Shown in pieces: positions 9,552 through 13,212 of a DNA stretch of 17,695 bases (its first letter is position 1; each line of letters opens with the position of its first letter). The translations under genes and the position numbers were made by a program. This stretch comes from a virus (taxonomy: Duplodnaviria; Heunggongvirae; Uroviricota; Caudoviricetes): IMG/VR virus record IMGVR_UViG_2562617151_000007, positions 1 through 17,695 of that record; one strand, written 5' to 3'. Below the pieces are notes generated by a model. That model was not told the DNA's origin. It did no database searches and saw only the letters and a list, made by a program, of their open reading frames with translations.

Positions 9552-9830
9552 TCAGGCCTCGAAGAATTCGCCGTTCTTCGGGGCTTTTTCTTTTGTCAGC
9601 ATTCTGGCTACTTGCTTAGCCAGTTCCGCCAACTCCTCGTCTTCAACACCCCATTCAAGAACAGCAAGAAGCATTCCCATTTTGGGGATGAAGCTGTCTT
9701 TCCATCGCGAAATTTGCGATTCATTAATCCCTAACGCGTCGGCAACCTTTCGCTGACCACGTACAGCAATTCGATTCAGGATGTTGCTTGTAATTGCATT
9801 CGCTTTCTTGCGAGTACTTGTAAGTTGCAT
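9552..9830 (-). CDS. cII: CII transcriptional activator
   Basis: 92-aa ORF with [13 protein letters not shown]...[15 protein letters not shown], matching lambda CII ([25 protein letters not shown]). Positioned after cro and nutR. Confidence 0.85.
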
Positions 9831-9938: not shown

Positions 9939-10139
9939 CTATTTGTTTTTCTTGTTGCTTGGGAAAGGACGAACTTCCTCTCCAATCACACTGCCATCAG
10001 GCTTTACCGTAACCATAATGTTACGGCCTGCCAGAATGGCCTTGCTGATAGCGCACTGGATTACACCAAAGTCACTGGCTGCTTTAGCCTGTCCATGGAT
10101 TTTGGCGTAATCGGCAAGTGTCATTCGAATCATATGCAC
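9939..10139 (-). CDS. cro: Cro repressor
   Basis: 66-aa ORF; ...[49 protein letters not shown] closely parallels lambda Cro ([49 protein letters not shown]). Divergent from cI. Track start is GTG. Confidence 0.85.
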
Positions 10140-10164: not shown

Positions 10165-10228
10165 AATACTACAGGTATTCAAAGCAATCAATACTCAGGG
10201 TATTTTTAGTTTAAGTACCTTAGCTATT
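10165..10228. promoter_or_regulatory. OR operator cluster (three 15-bp palindromes AATAC-N5-GTATT) with PR/PRM
   Basis: AATACTACAGGTATT (about 10165-10179), AATACTCAGGGTATT (about 10190-10204) and a degenerate AGTACCTTAGCTATT (about 10214-10228), spaced 24-25 bp centre to centre, between cro and cI. Confidence 0.6.
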
Positions 10229-10239
10229 AGAATTAAGCT

Positions 10240-10956
10240 ATGGAAAATAAAAAATCACTGACGACAGAACAGCTCGAAGACGCTAAGCGGCTTAAGGCTT
10301 TGTATGAGTCAAAAAAGAAAGAATTGGGAATAACCCAATACTCAATCGCTGATGAACTGGGTATCACCCAAGGAGCGGTAGGGCATTATCTTAATGGCAG
10401 AAACGCGCTAAACGTTGAGGTCGCATCTGGTTTTGCACGTTTGTTGCAAGTCTCAATTGCTGATTTTAGCCAGTCAATTGCTGCCAAGGTTGCAGAACAG
10501 GCAGAAAGCCTTAAGAGCGATGCCAACGTAAGGTATGCAGGGGAATACAGAGCAGGAAAGAGGTATCCGGTGTTAAGCAGTATCCAGGCTGGCTCGTGGT
10601 GTGAAGCATGCGAACCATACACCATTAAAGACATAGATGTTTGGCTTGAGTCTGACGCGCATATTCAAGGTAATGCGTTCTGGCTTAAAGTGGAAGGTGA
10701 TTCAATGACGGCACCGGTTGGGTTAAGCATTCCAGAGGGAACATTCGTTCTTTTCGATACCGGAAGGGAGGCGATCAACGGCAGCTTGGTCATAGCAAAA
10801 CTTTCTGACTCTAACGAAGCAACATTCAAGAAGCTGATAATCGACGGCGGAAATAAATACCTCAAGGGACTTAACCCTGCATGGCCTCTCGTGCCAATCA
10901 ATGGAAACTGCAAGATTATAGGCGTTGCAATTGAGACAAAACTAAGGCTGGTTTGA
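10240..10956 (+). CDS. cI: CI repressor (HTH N-terminal domain + LexA/S24-type autocleavage C-terminal domain)
   Basis: 238-aa ORF. N-terminus TTEQLEDAKRLKALYESKKKELGITQ parallels lambda CI ([26 protein letters not shown]); C-terminus has FWLKVEGDSMTAP and ATFKKLI matching the lambda CI cleavage domain. Confidence 0.9.
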   Translation: MENKKSLTTEQLEDAKRLKALYESKKKELGITQYSIADELGITQGAVGHYLNGRNALNVEVASGFARLLQVSIADFSQSIAAKVAEQAESLKSDANVRYAGEYRAGKRYPVLSSIQAGSWCEACEPYTIKDIDVWLESDAHIQGNAFWLKVEGDSMTAPVGLSIPEGTFVLFDTGREAINGSLVIAKLSDSNEATFKKLIIDGGNKYLKGLNPAWPLVPINGNCKIIGVAIETKLRLV

Positions 10957-10975
10957 TCACGCAAGGGGGGCGCTT

Positions 10976-11344
10976 ATGGTTGGAACCGCTATAGCAAGCT
11001 TTTTGGGGATGTTGGCAATCTCAACAATTTACGGCTTAGCGCATGCTTTTATTGCGAAATCTCTATCAGAAAAAATAAGCCAGGCTTGGGCGCATAGATC
11101 AGCTCGTTTCATGATTCTAGTGGTCATAGCAATACAAGGGATATCTGCATTTATCCTCTATGGATCAAGCTTATACCTGTTGTATCAAGGAGCGACATTT
11201 ACGCCTTACACCAGTGATTACGGAACTCTATACGATGGTAGTGAAGACATCTCTATGGCTTGGATCGTCTTTGGTTTATCTATGGCCGTGTCTGTTGTAG
11301 CAGACATCATTAAGGTAATTCTCGTCTTAACCTTCGCTGACTAA
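10976..11344 (+). CDS. Small integral membrane protein (3-4 predicted TM helices), unknown function
   Basis: 122-aa ORF 20 nt after cI on the same strand, with AAGGGGG RBS. Hydrophobic stretches AIASFLGMLAISTIYGLAHAFIA, FMILVVIAIQGISAFILYG, WIVFGLSMAVSVVADIIKVILVL. Occupies the rexAB position. Confidence 0.6.
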   Translation: MVGTAIASFLGMLAISTIYGLAHAFIAKSLSEKISQAWAHRSARFMILVVIAIQGISAFILYGSSLYLLYQGATFTPYTSDYGTLYDGSEDISMAWIVFGLSMAVSVVADIIKVILVLTFAD

Positions 11345-11430
11345 CCCATAATCCCGGCAGCAATAGCTATCGGGATCCACTTCACATATCCCGCATAAAA
11401 AGCACTGAACAAGCAGATACCGAAAAAATA

Positions 11431-11515
11431 AATATCCTTTGTATTCATTTGTTTATCATTATTTCATCAAAAATAAATACCTTGGGTATTTACACAATAA
11501 AATACCTACAGTATT
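11431..11515. promoter_or_regulatory. OL operator cluster with PL
   Basis: AATACCTTGGGTATT (about 11476-11490), AATACCTACAGTATT (about 11501-11515) and degenerate AATATCCTTTGTATT (about 11431-11445); same half-sites as OR. Confidence 0.55.
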
Positions 11516-11563
11516 CTTTAGCCATCAGCAGGACGCTGGAAGCCAAACGGAACAGATTGGCAG

Positions 11564-11603
11564 GCTCTTTAACATTGATGGGATTGTCCCGCCGAAATGC
11601 GGG
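11564..11603 (+). promoter_or_regulatory. nutL (boxA + boxB)
   Basis: boxA-like GCTCTTTAACA (about 11564-11574) followed by boxB CCCGC-CGAAAT-GCGGG (about 11588-11603), upstream of N. Same boxB as nutR. Confidence 0.6.
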
Positions 11604-11711
11604 AACCAAAGAGTAGTTGGCTTTGGGGTGACGTGAAGTGCAGCTGCACGACGGCAACCGGAAGATAAGCACCCGGCGCGTCACCGCCAAAGCCAATCAT
11701 CGGAGGTCAAC

Positions 11712-12008
11712 ATGATAATCGTTACTTATCTGGCTGATGATAACACCAGAAATCGCCGCAGAGCACGCAGACAGGCTCAACGTGAACAGGCAATGCAAGA
11801 ACAGCGACTTGCGCGAAAAATTGCGCTAAAGCTCTCTGGTTGCGTCAGAGCAGATAAAGCAGCATCACTCGGAAGCCTTCGCTGCAAGAAGGCAGAAGAA
11901 GTCGAGCGTAAACAGAACCGTATTTACTACCGCAAGCCACGCAGTGAAATGGGTGTGACTTGTGTTGGTCGCCAGAAAATGAAATTAGGCAGCAAACCAC
12001 TTATTTGA
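11712..12008 (+). CDS. N: N-type transcription antiterminator (arginine-rich motif)
   Basis: 98-aa ORF. N-terminal DNTRNRRRARRQAQREQA is the boxB-binding arginine-rich motif; C-terminal NRIYYRKPRSEMGVTCVGRQKMKLGSKPLI parallels lambda N (NQRTWYSKPGERGITCSGRQKIKGKSIPLI). GGAGG RBS. Confidence 0.85.
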   Translation: MIIVTYLADDNTRNRRRARRQAQREQAMQEQRLARKIALKLSGCVRADKAASLGSLRCKKAEEVERKQNRIYYRKPRSEMGVTCVGRQKMKLGSKPLI

Positions 12009-12016
12009 GGTGAGAT

Positions 12017-12487
12017 ATGACAAAATCATGGAGCGTACCTTTTCCTGAATCAGAAACTGAACATGATGGAATGCCTGTTTTCTGGAGATTCCAAGCGACA
12101 GTTGAAGAAGATGGAATCAAAATATTCGCACTTCAATATATAGCTTTTCATCAGACAGAGCATTATGCATGGTTGGTTCCTGCGCATTGGATTGTTGATT
12201 TTAAACCAGCACCAAATCAGTGGTTACAGGAATGGAAACAAAAGAGAAATAGATATGCAATTAAGAAAGTAGCAAAAAATGCAGAAAGATCTTTTGCATT
12301 CCCAACGAAGAAACTTGCCATTGAAAGTTTATTGCGCCGGAAGAAATACCATTTAATGAGAATAAAACAAGATTTGGCTGTTGTATCAACTCTTGTTGAT
12401 GGGATGAAAAATATTGATACATCAACACCAGATATTGAATATAACTTTGGACACAACCAAGAAACAGAAAATTGGGTATTTTATTAG
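12017..12487 (+). CDS. Hypothetical protein (156 aa), AT-rich cargo gene downstream of N
   Basis: ORF with GAGGTGAG RBS, 9 nt after the N stop. No family recognised. Visibly lower GC than neighbouring core genes; followed by a 9-bp-stem hairpin (about 12502-12529) and a terminator. Confidence 0.6.
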   Translation: MTKSWSVPFPESETEHDGMPVFWRFQATVEEDGIKIFALQYIAFHQTEHYAWLVPAHWIVDFKPAPNQWLQEWKQKRNRYAIKKVAKNAERSFAFPTKKLAIESLLRRKKYHLMRIKQDLAVVSTLVDGMKNIDTSTPDIEYNFGHNQETENWVFY

Positions 12488-12617: not shown

Positions 12618-12699
12618 ATGCATACCAATAACGCTTCACGAGAGGTGTTTATTCATGAGCGTAAACGCTGATTAATGAACGCAGTTGATAGGATATAAA

Positions 12700-13212
12700 A
12701 TGGCATTTATAAAGATTCTTGAATTAATTTCCCTAAGTGAGATTAATAATGTTGTCAAATATAACCCTATTTCTGGTGAGTTCACATGGCTAAAATCTTA
12801 TGGAGCAAGAAAGATAGGTGGAACTGCCGGAACAATAACAACAAGCGGCTACTTAAGGATTTTCATTAACGGAAGACACTATGCTGCACATAGACTTGCA
12901 TGGATTATCACTTTCGGTGTTGAGCCTGAAGGTATTATCGACCATATAAATGGCATAAAGACAGATAACAGAATTTGCAATCTGAGGCTTGCAACTTACT
13001 CACAGAATTCAATGAATAGTAAAATAAATACCCTCAACAAATCAGGTTGCAAAGGAGTCACATGGAAGAAGGAAAGTAGAAAGTGGGCTGCCTATGGGAA
13101 ATTAAACGGGAAGAAAAAACATCTAGGGTACTTTAATGAATTAGAAGATGCCAAAAAAGCTTACTGCGACTTTGCCAGAAAGCATCACGGCGAATTCTAC
13201 AGGAGCAAATAA
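12700..13212 (+). CDS. HNH homing-type endonuclease with C-terminal AP2-like DNA-binding domain
   Basis: Internal ATG with AGGA RBS (the track ORF starts at an upstream TTG). HNH motif AAHRLAWIITFGVEPEGIIDHINGIKTDNRICNLRLATYSQN; AP2-like GVTWKKESRKWAAYGKLNGKKKHLGYFNELEDAKKAY. AT-rich. Confidence 0.8.
   Translation: MAFIKILELISLSEINNVVKYNPISGEFTWLKSYGARKIGGTAGTITTSGYLRIFINGRHYAAHRLAWIITFGVEPEGIIDHINGIKTDNRICNLRLATYSQNSMNSKINTLNKSGCKGVTWKKESRKWAAYGKLNGKKKHLGYFNELEDAKKAYCDFARKHHGEFYRSK

What the first reader, a model, noticed from the sequence alone, without database searches (positions are those of the whole stretch)
10976..11344. Small polytopic membrane protein in the cI operon at the rexAB position
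A 122-aa protein with three to four hydrophobic helices is encoded 20 nt after cI on the same strand, before OL/PL and N. That is exactly where lambda carries rexA/rexB and where other lambdoid phages carry exclusion or abortive-infection cargo expressed with the repressor. It bears no resemblance to RexB that I can see.
Basis: partly seen in the sequence, partly recalled or inferred. Interest (0 to 1): 0.6.

Follow-up and report, generated by a model that had tools for sequence, protein, structure and literature searches.

The report
Orphan membrane protein beside phage repressor
The ORF is a real, conserved gene (hkaS of coliphage HK620) for a tiny three-helix inner-membrane protein made together with the prophage repressor; it sits where other lambdoid phages keep anti-phage cargo, but its function has never been tested and it resembles no known protein.

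Summary
Window 10976-11344 (+) encodes a 122-aa protein 19 nt after cI, with its own Shine-Dalgarno and no terminator in between, and upstream of OL/PL/nutL/N. It is hkaS ("unknown") of phage HK620, annotated in 2001, and PHROG 6534 (unknown function).

It is a real gene: dN/dS is 0.14-0.2, and homologs at 54-81% identity in Hafnia-type, Salmonella and Buttiauxella prophages sit in exactly the same place. The prediction is three transmembrane helices, N-out/C-in, with a basic cytoplasmic loop and an acidic periplasmic beta-hairpin (AF2 pLDDT 91).

No Pfam, NCBIfam, PADLOC, PDB or fold match is informative. hhalign gives 0.3% probability against RexB, P22 SieA and a class I holin. An exhaustive scan of 1.84 billion representatives finds only its own family. 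It occurs in 146 of 5426 complete E. coli genomes and 16 phage records, never on plasmids.

In relatives the slot is variable: lambda rexAB, Sf6 gp38, other ORFs in BHUENT3, empty in P22. That fits accessory cargo.

A defence role, which I judge most likely a block to genome entry and otherwise Abi, is plausible but purely inferred. The gene is known but uncharacterised, and of moderate interest.

The parts
10165..10228 (.). OR region: three operator sites AATAC-N-GTATT type (10165-10179, 10190-10204, 10214-10228) between cro and cI. PRM must lie here. The cI ATG is only 12 nt beyond OR3 and has no Shine-Dalgarno.
   Evidence: Pattern search, (1, 1 and 2 mismatches; spacing 25 and 24 nt); sequence; OR1-3 annotated at the same place in HK620.
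10240..10956 (+). cI repressor (238 aa), HK620 immunity type
   Evidence: Pfam HTH_3 + Peptidase_S24; 99.6% identical to HK620 cI.
10963..10970 (+). Shine-Dalgarno AAGGGGGG of hkaS, 5 nt before the ATG. An AAGGA/GAGGG motif sits at the same place in the Salmonella, Hafnia-type and Buttiauxella loci.
10976..11344 (+). hkaS: 122-aa inner-membrane protein. Predicted layout: TM1 ~2-27, basic cytoplasmic loop 28-44 (K/R 4), TM2 ~45-70, acidic periplasmic beta-hairpin loop 71-92 (D/E 4), TM3 ~93-121. Invariant intramembrane Q54, D110 and K113; invariant C-terminal I-x-VLT-x-A.
11351..11376 (+). Stem-loop (AUCCCGG.AGC-loop-GCU.AUCGGGAU) 7 nt after the hkaS stop; it has no U-tract here. A stem-loop lies at the equivalent position in every lineage, and in Buttiauxella it is a canonical Rho-independent terminator. 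It is the probable 3' end (tIMM) of the cI-hkaS transcript.
   Evidence: Fold, (window, Salmonella and Hafnia-type loci; z = -4.6 for the Hafnia-type locus, L010); L017 sequence ACCCGGA..TCCGGGTTTTTTATT. The HK620 record annotates a tIMM between hkaS and OL.
11431..11517 (+). OL/PL: operator-like site 11431-11445 (2 mismatches), OL2 11476-11490 (perfect), OL1 11501-11515, and PL -35 TTTACA / -10 TATTCT at 11489-11517 reading towards N.
   Evidence: HK620 annotation.
11564..11604 (+). nutL (boxA GCTCTTTAAC and the boxB hairpin)
   Evidence: Sequence; nutL annotated at the equivalent place in HK620 and HK630.
11712..12008 (+). N antiterminator (98 aa, arginine-rich N-terminus); it marks the far boundary of the slot.

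Best explanation
SHOWN: hkaS is a genuine, selected gene for a 122-aa protein that is almost wholly membrane-embedded. It has three transmembrane helices, N-terminus out and C-terminus in. It is the promoter-distal gene of the repressor operon, in the order PRM/PRE, cI, 19-nt gap with its own SD, hkaS, stem-loop/terminator, OL/PL.

INFERRED from that architecture: hkaS is made continuously in lysogens together with cI, and also from PRE during establishment. It is accessory cargo (a 'moron' without its own promoter) in the variable cI-OL slot.

INFERRED, the mechanism I commit to: it protects the lysogen, or here a defective prophage remnant, from heteroimmune phages by acting in the cytoplasmic membrane. 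The most likely mode is superinfection exclusion. In that mode it interferes with the inner-membrane step of genome entry, either by engaging the incoming ejection or tape-measure conduit or by masking an inner-membrane host protein that conduit needs. P22 SieA (also 3 TM), HK97 gp15 and T4 Imm each do this as single small membrane proteins. The invariant polar residues inside the bilayer (Q54, D110, K113), the conserved interfacial motif Q-x-W-x-H-(R/K)-x-A-R-F and the C-terminal VLTFAD would be the contact or oligomerisation surface.

My rough weights are: any anti-phage role ~0.5; entry block ~0.3; Abi-type ~0.2.
For: Gene reality:
- Full-length PHROG 6534 match.
- 96% identity to HK620 hkaS.
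- dN/dS 0.14-0.2 at dS 0.7 to >1.6.
- About 640 member sequences in the intact clusters, against 4 in frameshifted ones.

Topology:
- Hydropathy and charge distribution.
- Positive-inside pattern conserved in all 7 homologs.
- AF2 pLDDT 91.4, with three long helices plus a beta-hairpin.

Operon:
- An 18-20 nt gap with an SD and no terminator in four diverged lineages.
- A stem-loop or canonical terminator right after hkaS.
- No promoter-like site inside the cI 3' end.

Strict synteny:
- 146/146 E. coli genomes and 16/16 phages carrying this cI also carry hkaS.
- The same position holds in Salmonella, Hafnia-type and Buttiauxella prophages.
- In Buttiauxella the repressor has a different DNA-binding domain, different cro and different operators, so hkaS is not tied to one immunity specificity.

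Slot is variable cargo:
- lambda rexAB, P22 empty, Sf6 gp38, BHUENT3 two other ORFs.
- The literature calls the cI-N interval a mosaic hotspot holding RexAB and BstA (PMC8585504).

Other points:
- Precedent that a single 3-TM inner-membrane protein suffices for exclusion: P22 SieA (PMC10883804).
- The gene is retained intact in a prophage that has lost replication, lysis and head genes.
Against: - There is no functional data of any kind, and no paper in the library mentions hkaS with HK620.
- There is no PADLOC hit.
- There is no sequence or fold similarity to SieA, RexB, holin or anything else.
- Characterised injection blockers of lambdoid phages (SieA, HK97 gp15, Cor) sit among virion genes. 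Characterised cargo next to the repressor (RexAB, BstA, Stk) acts after DNA entry, so location favours the Abi rival.
- hkaS rides in podo-, sipho- and Stx-type virions, so it is not matched to one entry apparatus.
- Strict linkage to cI is expected anyway, because hkaS lies between cI and the OL operators that cI must bind.
- Conservation is spread evenly over both faces of the membrane (31-35% invariant per region), so no face is singled out.
Confidence: 0.3

Rival explanations
1. Abortive-infection effector. HkaS oligomerises into a latent ion-conducting or holin-like pore in the inner membrane. An infecting phage triggers it, by membrane perturbation or by a phage protein binding the cytoplasmic loop or C-tail. 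Membrane potential then collapses and the infected cell dies before progeny are made. This would be a one-protein functional analogue of RexB.
For: It sits in the same slot as rexAB and BstA (PMC8585504), both Abi systems. Characterised cargo adjacent to the repressor in lambdoid phages acts after entry (established knowledge: RexAB, BstA, Stk of 933W). It has the three-TM N-out/C-in topology of class I holins. It has invariant polar or charged residues within the helices (Q54, D110, K113) and small-residue packing motifs such as G100-x3-A104, as expected for an oligomeric pore.
Against: There is no partner sensor gene; RexB needs RexA, and nothing lies between hkaS and OL. The soluble loops are only about 17 and 22 residues, leaving little to sense with. 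There is no homology to RexB or holin. It lacks the charged C-terminal tail and the dual-start motif of class I holins. A constitutively expressed pore-former would be costly, yet the gene is stably kept in 146 genomes.
Confidence: 0.2
2. Not anti-phage. HkaS is an orphan immunity or protective factor against membrane-targeting antibacterial toxins (pore-forming colicins or microcins, CDI ionophores, T6SS membrane effectors). These toxins are classically neutralised by small 2-4 TM inner-membrane proteins, so the lysogen would gain an advantage in bacterial competition.
For: The architecture (about 110-120 aa, three TM, almost no soluble part) matches E1-type pore-forming colicin immunity proteins (my own knowledge, not tested here). 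The same prophage carries a Rap1a-like T6SS immunity homologue in another cargo slot (window 5959-6294, Pfam Rap1a E 1e-14). That shows the element does carry interbacterial-competition cargo.
Against: There is no Pfam or NCBIfam hit to any immunity family. It is never found on plasmids or next to a toxin gene. The family is confined to one prophage slot.
Confidence: 0.12
3. A lysogeny-accessory regulator. HkaS is a membrane protein that tunes the carrier phage's own decision or maintenance. It might do so by modulating membrane-bound FtsH/HflKC (cII/cIII stability) or, like RexB, by protecting phage or host proteins from proteolysis. It would be expressed from PRE at establishment and from PRM afterwards.
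For: It is co-transcribed with cI from both PRE and PRM by position. It stays linked to the repressor C-terminal domain across a swap of the DNA-binding domain. RexB has such secondary roles (established knowledge). The most conserved elements include the cytoplasmic-face motif and the C-terminal tail.
Against: Close relatives of the same cI C-terminal domain do without it (BHUENT3), and P22 has nothing in the slot, so it is dispensable for the lysogeny circuit. Linkage is explained by its position between cI and OL. There is no similarity to cIII, HflC/K or other FtsH modulators.
Confidence: 0.1
4. A hitchhiking ORF with no significant function, kept only because it is trapped between cI and its OL operators.
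For: Its position guarantees co-inheritance with the immunity module. It is a narrow orphan family. A few frameshifted alleles exist.
Against: dN/dS is 0.14-0.2 over saturating synonymous divergence. Length is exactly 122 codons in every intact lineage down to 54% identity. The SD and the downstream stem-loop are conserved while the surrounding sequence has diverged.
Confidence: 0.03

Closest known systems
HK620 HkaS (AAK28867.1) / PHROG 6534
   Same: It is the same gene: 96% amino-acid identity, the same flanks (cI upstream, tIMM/OL/PL/nutL/N downstream), and a full-length profile match at E 2e-78.
   Different: Nothing of substance differs. The family has carried the label 'unknown' or 'hypothetical protein' since 2001, and no function is attached to it.
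Lambda RexB (with RexA), the cI-rexA-rexB operon
   Same: It occupies the same genomic slot and has the same operon logic, as a membrane protein co-transcribed with cI and ending before OL/PL. It is polytopic and inner-membrane.
   Different: There is no sequence relationship (hhalign probability 0.3%; no RexB Pfam hit). It has three rather than four TM helices and 122 rather than 144 aa. It has no RexA-like partner.
P22 SieA
   Same: It is a single small inner-membrane protein with three predicted TM helices, expressed from the prophage. SieA alone is sufficient to block DNA injection (PMC10883804).
   Different: There is no homology (hhalign probability 0.25%). HkaS lacks the SieA cytoplasmic motif FxRYPxEAxxFNK. 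SieA is 162-164 aa, has its own promoter and lies next to the ejection-protein genes, not in the repressor operon.
BstA of Salmonella prophage BTP1
   Same: It lies directly downstream of the prophage repressor, presumably shares the repressor's promoter, and shows conserved synteny (PMC8585504).
   Different: BstA is a large soluble DNA-associated Abi protein with an aba self-immunity element. It has no similarity in sequence, size or localisation.
Class I holins (lambda S105, P22 gp13)
   Same: Size is about 105-120 aa, with three TM helices and N-out/C-in topology.
   Different: There is no homology, no charged C-terminal tail and no dual-start motif. It is not in a lysis cassette, and it is expressed in the lysogenic rather than the late programme.
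Sf6 gene 38 protein (cI-OL slot of a 434-immunity P22-like phage)
   Same: It is a small uncharacterised envelope-targeted protein in the same slot after a related repressor.
   Different: gp38 is a signal-peptide-bearing secreted protein, not polytopic, and is unrelated to HkaS. Its homologue in this window sits in a different slot (6310-6699).

Membership tests
HkaS / PHROG 6534 | Full-length sequence match to the family profile | tested here: met
   E 2.1e-78, residues 1-122 against profile positions 1-122 of 122; 96% identical to HK620 HkaS.
HkaS / PHROG 6534 | Position immediately 3' of a LexA-type cI repressor and 5' of OL/PL/N | tested here: met
RexB (lambda exclusion protein) | Sequence homology to RexB | tested here: not met
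   hhalign probability 0.3% against lambda RexB; no RexB family among the Pfam hits at E<=1.
RexB (lambda exclusion protein) | Adjacent RexA-like sensor partner | tested here: not met
   cI is followed directly by hkaS, then by the non-coding OL/PL region.
RexB (lambda exclusion protein) | Four transmembrane helices | tested here: not met
   Three helices by hydropathy and by AF2.
RexB (lambda exclusion protein) | Promoter-distal gene of the cI operon, before tIMM/OL | tested here: met
RexB (lambda exclusion protein) | Exclusion of T4 rII and other phages through loss of membrane potential | not testable with these tools
   Needs phage challenge and membrane-potential assays.
P22 SieA | Sequence homology, including the cytoplasmic motif FxRYPxEAxxFNK | tested here: not met
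   hhalign probability 0.25%. The motif (PMC10883804) is absent from the HkaS sequence.
P22 SieA | Inner-membrane protein with three TM segments | tested here: met
   By prediction only.
P22 SieA | Blocks DNA injection by P22-like phages | not testable with these tools
   Needs plating and DNA-entry assays.
Class I holin | Three TM, N-out/C-in | tested here: met
   Positive-inside distribution conserved in 7 homologs.
Class I holin | Homology, charged C-terminal cytoplasmic tail, dual-start motif, location in a lysis cassette | tested here: not met
   hhalign probability 0.3% against P22 gp13. The protein ends ...VLTFAD two residues after TM3 and has a single Met start. It lies in the immunity operon.
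Known anti-phage defence proteins (PADLOC-DB v2) | Match to any defence-system HMM | tested here: not met
   0 families at E<=1.
Pore-forming colicin/microcin immunity proteins | Sequence family match; adjacency to a toxin gene; plasmid or bacteriocin-locus context | tested here: not met
   No Pfam or NCBIfam immunity family hit. No plasmid copy. The neighbours are always cI and OL. A direct profile comparison with individual immunity proteins was not done.

The most novel reading that the evidence does not exclude
HkaS is a self-sufficient, 122-residue, almost entirely membrane-buried anti-phage protein of a fold family with no relatives. It would be either a new type of genome-entry blocker or a one-component RexB-like depolarising switch. 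It is expressed from the repressor promoter in about 3% of E. coli genomes and is kept even by decayed prophages.
Probability: 0.45. Interest if true: 0.55.

Novelty: new member of a known kind. Interest (0 to 1): 0.4.

Why it matters
The interval between the repressor gene and OL is one of the few places in a lambdoid prophage that is transcribed at high level throughout lysogeny. Every cargo characterised there so far (RexAB, BstA, Stk) turned out to be a phage-defence function.

hkaS is a compact, single-gene, experimentally tractable occupant of that slot. It is present in 146 of 5426 complete E. coli genomes, in Stx-converting phages, and in the model phages HK620, HK630 and mEpX2. No function has been assigned to it in 25 years.

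If it is a defence, it would add a minimal membrane-only system that current defence finders cannot see. It could also affect phage-therapy host range in E. coli, including EHEC lineages. If it is not a defence, it would be a counter-example to the 'repressor-adjacent means defence' heuristic. Either way the claim is cheaply testable.

Tried and rejected
Searches that found no relative or no informative match:
- Pfam, NCBIfam, PADLOC and PDB sequence searches gave nothing significant. The only Pfam hits, Cation_ATPase_C at 19 bits and TssN at 13.6 bits, are below cut-off and are hydrophobic-composition matches.
- The exhaustive profile search of 1.84 billion representatives found only the family itself, a 44-aa fragment, and a 5949-aa Rhs/YD-repeat protein. 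In that protein a nine-times-repeated segment (ATFQTYSSGYTTLYEW...) resembles the periplasmic hairpin ATFTPYTSDYGTLYDG. I treated this as a short-motif coincidence inflated by repetition, not as homology.
- Direct profile comparisons with lambda RexB, P22 SieA and P22 holin gp13 all gave about 0.3% probability.
- Four full-text literature searches found no paper on hkaS, and the slot-focused search returned none either.

Ideas considered and dropped:
- A convergent 35-aa hydrophobic ORF on the minus strand (11343-11450) looked like a possible small toxin or partner peptide. I rejected it because it has no SD and the frame closes after 10-12 codons in the Salmonella and Hafnia-type loci.
- A cleavable signal peptide for TM1 (A-H-A at residues 22-24) was rejected. 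There is no basic n-region and the AXA motif is not conserved in homologs.
- An oligomer prediction using concatenated copies was considered and not run.
- The tIMM coordinates in the HK620 record map to window about 11426-11456. I could find no hairpin there; the only conserved stem-loop is at 11351-11376.

Full report
**1. Observation**

The window contains a lambdoid immunity region. From left to right it holds cII (9552-9830, minus strand), cro (9939-10139, minus strand) and three OR operators at 10165-10228. Then come cI (10240-10956, plus strand), the ORF in question (10976-11344, plus strand), OL/PL (about 11431-11517), nutL and N (11712-12008).

The ORF is 122 codons long and starts with ATG. 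It lies 19 nt after the cI stop codon. A Shine-Dalgarno AAGGGGGG precedes the ATG by 5 nt. No terminator-like structure lies between cI and the ORF. The one correction is that there are three hydrophobic helices, not "three to four".

**2. Identity**

The region is 98% identical in DNA to the immunity region of coliphage HK620. In that record the ORF is annotated as hkaS, product "unknown". It lies between cI and features the authors labelled tIMM, OL3-OL1, pL and nutL.

The same cI-hkaS module is found in 16 phage records:
- P22-like podoviruses: HK620, vB_EcoP-611R6, HF4s.
- Lambda-like siphoviruses: HK630, HK140, mEpX2.
- Stx-converting phages: phi296, phi367, Stx2_EH1904, Stx2_5044.

It also occurs in 146 of 5426 complete E. 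coli genomes. In every case it is chromosomal, cI and hkaS are together, and hkaS is annotated "hypothetical protein". It is absent from 72,556 plasmids. It matches PHROG 6534 (unknown function) over its full length (E 2e-78). No paper in the searchable library mentions hkaS together with HK620.

**3. It is a real, selected gene**

Word-indexed and exhaustive HMM searches recover only a very small family. The members are the E. coli alleles, an 81%-identical form in Hafnia-type metagenomic and genomic contigs, 55-59%-identical forms in Salmonella, and a 54%-identical form in Buttiauxella.

- All intact members are exactly 122 residues long.
- dN/dS against the 81% and 59% homologs is 0.14-0.20, with dS from 0.7 to saturation.
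- Frameshifted alleles exist but are rare: 4 member sequences, against about 640 in intact clusters.
- cI diverges more slowly than HkaS (86% versus 59% identity between E. coli and Salmonella).

**4. Anatomy of the protein**

Hydropathy gives three segments, at residues 2-27, 45-70 and 93-121. The first loop (28-44) carries four K/R. The second loop (71-92) carries four D/E and no K/R. This positive-inside asymmetry is conserved in all seven diverged homologs. The predicted topology is therefore N-terminus periplasmic and C-terminus cytoplasmic.

AF2 with only five sequences gives pLDDT 91.4. The model has helices at 2-29, 31-38, 41-74 and 89-121, and a short beta-hairpin at 78-86.

The invariant residues fall into four groups:
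- A small-residue face in TM1 (G3, A5, S8, G11, S16, Y19).
- The interfacial motif K33..Q36-x-W38-x-H40-(R/K)-x-A43-R44-F45.
- Q54 in TM2 and Y67-x-L-Y70 at its periplasmic end.
- G100/A104, D110 and K113 in TM3, plus the C-terminal I-x-V-L-T-x-A.

Conservation is spread about evenly across regions, at 31-35% invariant. The nine C-terminal residues are higher, at 56%.

TM1 is not a signal peptide. It has no basic n-region, and its A-H-A is not conserved.

**5. Operon architecture, compared across lineages**

In the E. coli, Hafnia-type, Salmonella and Buttiauxella loci, the cI-hkaS gap is 18-20 nt and contains an AAGGA/GAGGG-type SD. This holds even though the spacer sequences differ.

A stem-loop follows the hkaS stop in every lineage:
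- Window 11351-11376 (10 pairs, no U-tract).
- A near-identical hairpin in the Hafnia-type locus (z = -4.6 against shuffles).
- An unrelated 12-bp hairpin followed by CAUUUC in Salmonella.
- A textbook Rho-independent terminator, ACCCGGA-loop-TCCGGGTTTTTTATT, in Buttiauxella.

No sigma-70-like promoter is detected within the 3' part of cI. The cI start codon lies 12 nt from OR3 and has no SD, as in lambda's leaderless PRM transcript (established knowledge). hkaS, in contrast, has a strong SD.

The inference is that hkaS is the distal gene of the PRM/PRE transcript and is translated independently of cI. This is inferred from sequence, not shown by transcript data.

**6. What the synteny does and does not mean**

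Every phage record whose repressor is at least 99% identical to this cI also has hkaS (16 of 16). This linkage would be expected anyway. hkaS lies between cI and the OL operators that cI must recognise, so anything in between travels with the immunity module.

Two observations are more informative:
- In Buttiauxella the gene follows a repressor whose S24 C-terminal domain is about 90% identical. Its DNA-binding domain, cro, operators (TTAAG-N-CTTAA type) and N (P22 gp24-like) are all different. hkaS has therefore survived an immunity swap and is not functionally tied to one operator specificity.
- Enterobacter phage BHUENT3 has a related cI (65% identity) but different cargo in the slot. That cargo is a 127-aa protein with a weak, sub-threshold zinc-ribbon match, plus a 109-aa coiled-coil protein with a C-terminal TM.

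Other slot contents:
- Sf6 has the secreted gp38.
- P22 has only 38 nt between c2 and OL.
- Lambda has rexA-rexB.
- Published work describes this interval as a mosaic hotspot that also houses BstA (PMC8585504).

So hkaS is dispensable, exchangeable cargo in a known accessory slot.

**7. Relationship to known proteins**

There are no significant hits in Pfam, NCBIfam, PADLOC or PDB sequences. Profile-profile comparisons with lambda RexB, P22 SieA and the P22 class I holin all give about 0.3% probability.

There is one curiosity. The periplasmic hairpin motif ATF-x-x-Y-x-S-x-Y-x-TLY recurs in a nine-fold repeat of a giant Rhs/YD protein. I regard this as a short-motif coincidence.

**8. Mechanism**

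Shown:
- A selected gene.
- An almost wholly membrane-embedded protein with predicted N-out/C-in three-TM topology.
- The distal position in the repressor operon.
- Exchangeable cargo status.

Inferred: it is expressed in lysogens, and it benefits the host-prophage pair.

I commit to an anti-phage role acting in the cytoplasmic membrane (about 0.5 overall), and within that to a block of genome entry (about 0.3). The reason is that single small polytopic inner-membrane proteins are sufficient for exactly this in P22 (SieA, three TM; PMC10883804). HK97 gp15 and T4 Imm do the same (established knowledge). HkaS also has no sensor partner or soluble domain.

The main rival is a RexB-like or holin-like depolarising Abi (about 0.2). 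It is favoured by location, because the characterised repressor-adjacent cargoes act after entry. It is also favoured by the invariant intramembrane Q/D/K residues and by the holin-like topology.

The non-defence rivals together are about 0.25:
- Immunity to membrane-targeting bacteriocins or contact-dependent toxins. The same element carries a Rap1a-like T6SS immunity homologue.
- A lysogeny-tuning role.
- Neutral hitchhiking, which purifying selection excludes.

None of these can be separated computationally with the tools at hand.

**9. Context of this particular copy**

The window is a decayed P22-like element. The replication gene O is truncated at about 8730 and abuts the last 24 or so codons of ejection gene 20, followed by gene 16. 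The helicase, nin, Q, lysis, terminase and head genes are therefore missing. Meanwhile int, tailspike, ant/sar, cI-hkaS, N and the recombination genes remain.

Retention of an intact cI-hkaS in a remnant is compatible with a host-beneficial function. It is, however, a single case.

**10. Verdict**

The finding is real and correctly located. It is not new as a sequence feature, since it is hkaS of HK620, annotated in 2001. It has no known function and no relatives outside its narrow family. The functional claim is untested.

I rate it as a new, uncharacterised member of a known kind: lysogeny-operon membrane cargo. It is of moderate interest and is a cheap, well-defined experimental target.

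Noticed in passing
window 8562-9378 (junction about 8720-8735): The prophage is defective. Replication gene O (Phage_rep_O, 221-aa ORF) loses similarity to intact O genes at about 8730 and is joined to the last 24 or so codons of ejection gene 20, followed by gene 16 (6724-8565, 75% identical to P22 gp16). Helicase/P, nin, Q, lysis, terminase, portal and coat genes are absent.
   Followed up: partly
window 5959-6294 (+) and 6310-6699 (+): Two signal-peptide-bearing ORFs occupy the slot where P22 has sieA, between gene 16 and ant. The first matches Pfam Rap1a (T6SS amidase-effector immunity protein, E 1e-14). The second (129 aa, no family) is a homologue (29% identity, E 7e-15) of Sf6 gene 38 protein, which in Sf6 sits in the cI-OL slot. 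The same cargo family therefore appears in two different moron slots.
   Followed up: partly
window 11343-11450 (-): A 35-codon ORF convergent with hkaS encodes a hydrophobic peptide (MNTKDIYFFGICLFSAFYAGYVKWIPIAIAAGIMG). It has no SD, and the frame closes after 10-12 codons in the Salmonella and Hafnia-type loci, so it is probably spurious.
   Followed up: yes
window 11431-11445: A third operator-like site (AATATCCTTTGTATT, 2 mismatches) lies 45 nt from OL2, much further than the 24-25 nt spacing at OR. It is conserved in the Salmonella locus. The HK620 record places OL3 and tIMM at other coordinates, where I see neither an operator match nor a hairpin.
   Followed up: partly
L017 (Buttiauxella sp. 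CBCPKK010000004.1) 567-2675: The repressor has the same S24 C-terminal domain as HK620 cI (about 90% identical) but an unrelated HTH domain, a different cro, TTAAG-N-CTTAA-type operators and a P22 gp24-type N, and it still carries hkaS. This is a clean example of a recombination joint inside the repressor linker.
   Followed up: partly
L015 (Enterobacter phage BHUENT3) 2670-3386: The cI-OL slot of this related repressor holds a two-gene cassette. One is a 127-aa protein with a weak, sub-threshold zinc-ribbon match. The other is a 109-aa coiled-coil protein with a C-terminal transmembrane helix and a weak XhlA-like hit. The layout recalls a sensor plus membrane effector and is uncharacterised.
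   Followed up: no
window 5389-5455 (+) and 4509-5387 (-): sar antisense RNA (Rfam RF00262, 65.6 bits) lies opposite the start of an ant antirepressor gene (Bro-N + P22_AR_C). This is a P22-type immI region, retained in the remnant.
   Followed up: no
window 12017-12487 (+) and 12685-13212 (+): Just after N there is a low-GC (35%) 156-aa ORF of unknown function (PHROG 1636). It is followed by an HNH homing-endonuclease-like gene (PHROG 99, E 1e-68) with a TTG start. Both are inserted in the early-left operon, where HK620 has hkaQ and the sieB-like hkaP.
   Followed up: no
window 1351-2022 (+): A hexapeptide-repeat acyltransferase lies between int and the tailspike 3' end, at the position of the P22 gtr O-antigen conversion genes. 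It is probably an O-antigen acetyltransferase used for lysogenic conversion.
   Followed up: no
P0013 (5949-aa Rhs/YD-repeat protein from the representative library): A segment repeated nine times (…ASATFQTYSSGYTTLYEWKGANQIDVRW…) resembles the HkaS periplasmic hairpin (GATFTPYTSDYGTLYDGSEDISMAW). The summed E-value is 1e-7. It is probably convergence on a Tyr/Gly-rich beta-hairpin, not homology.
   Followed up: partly
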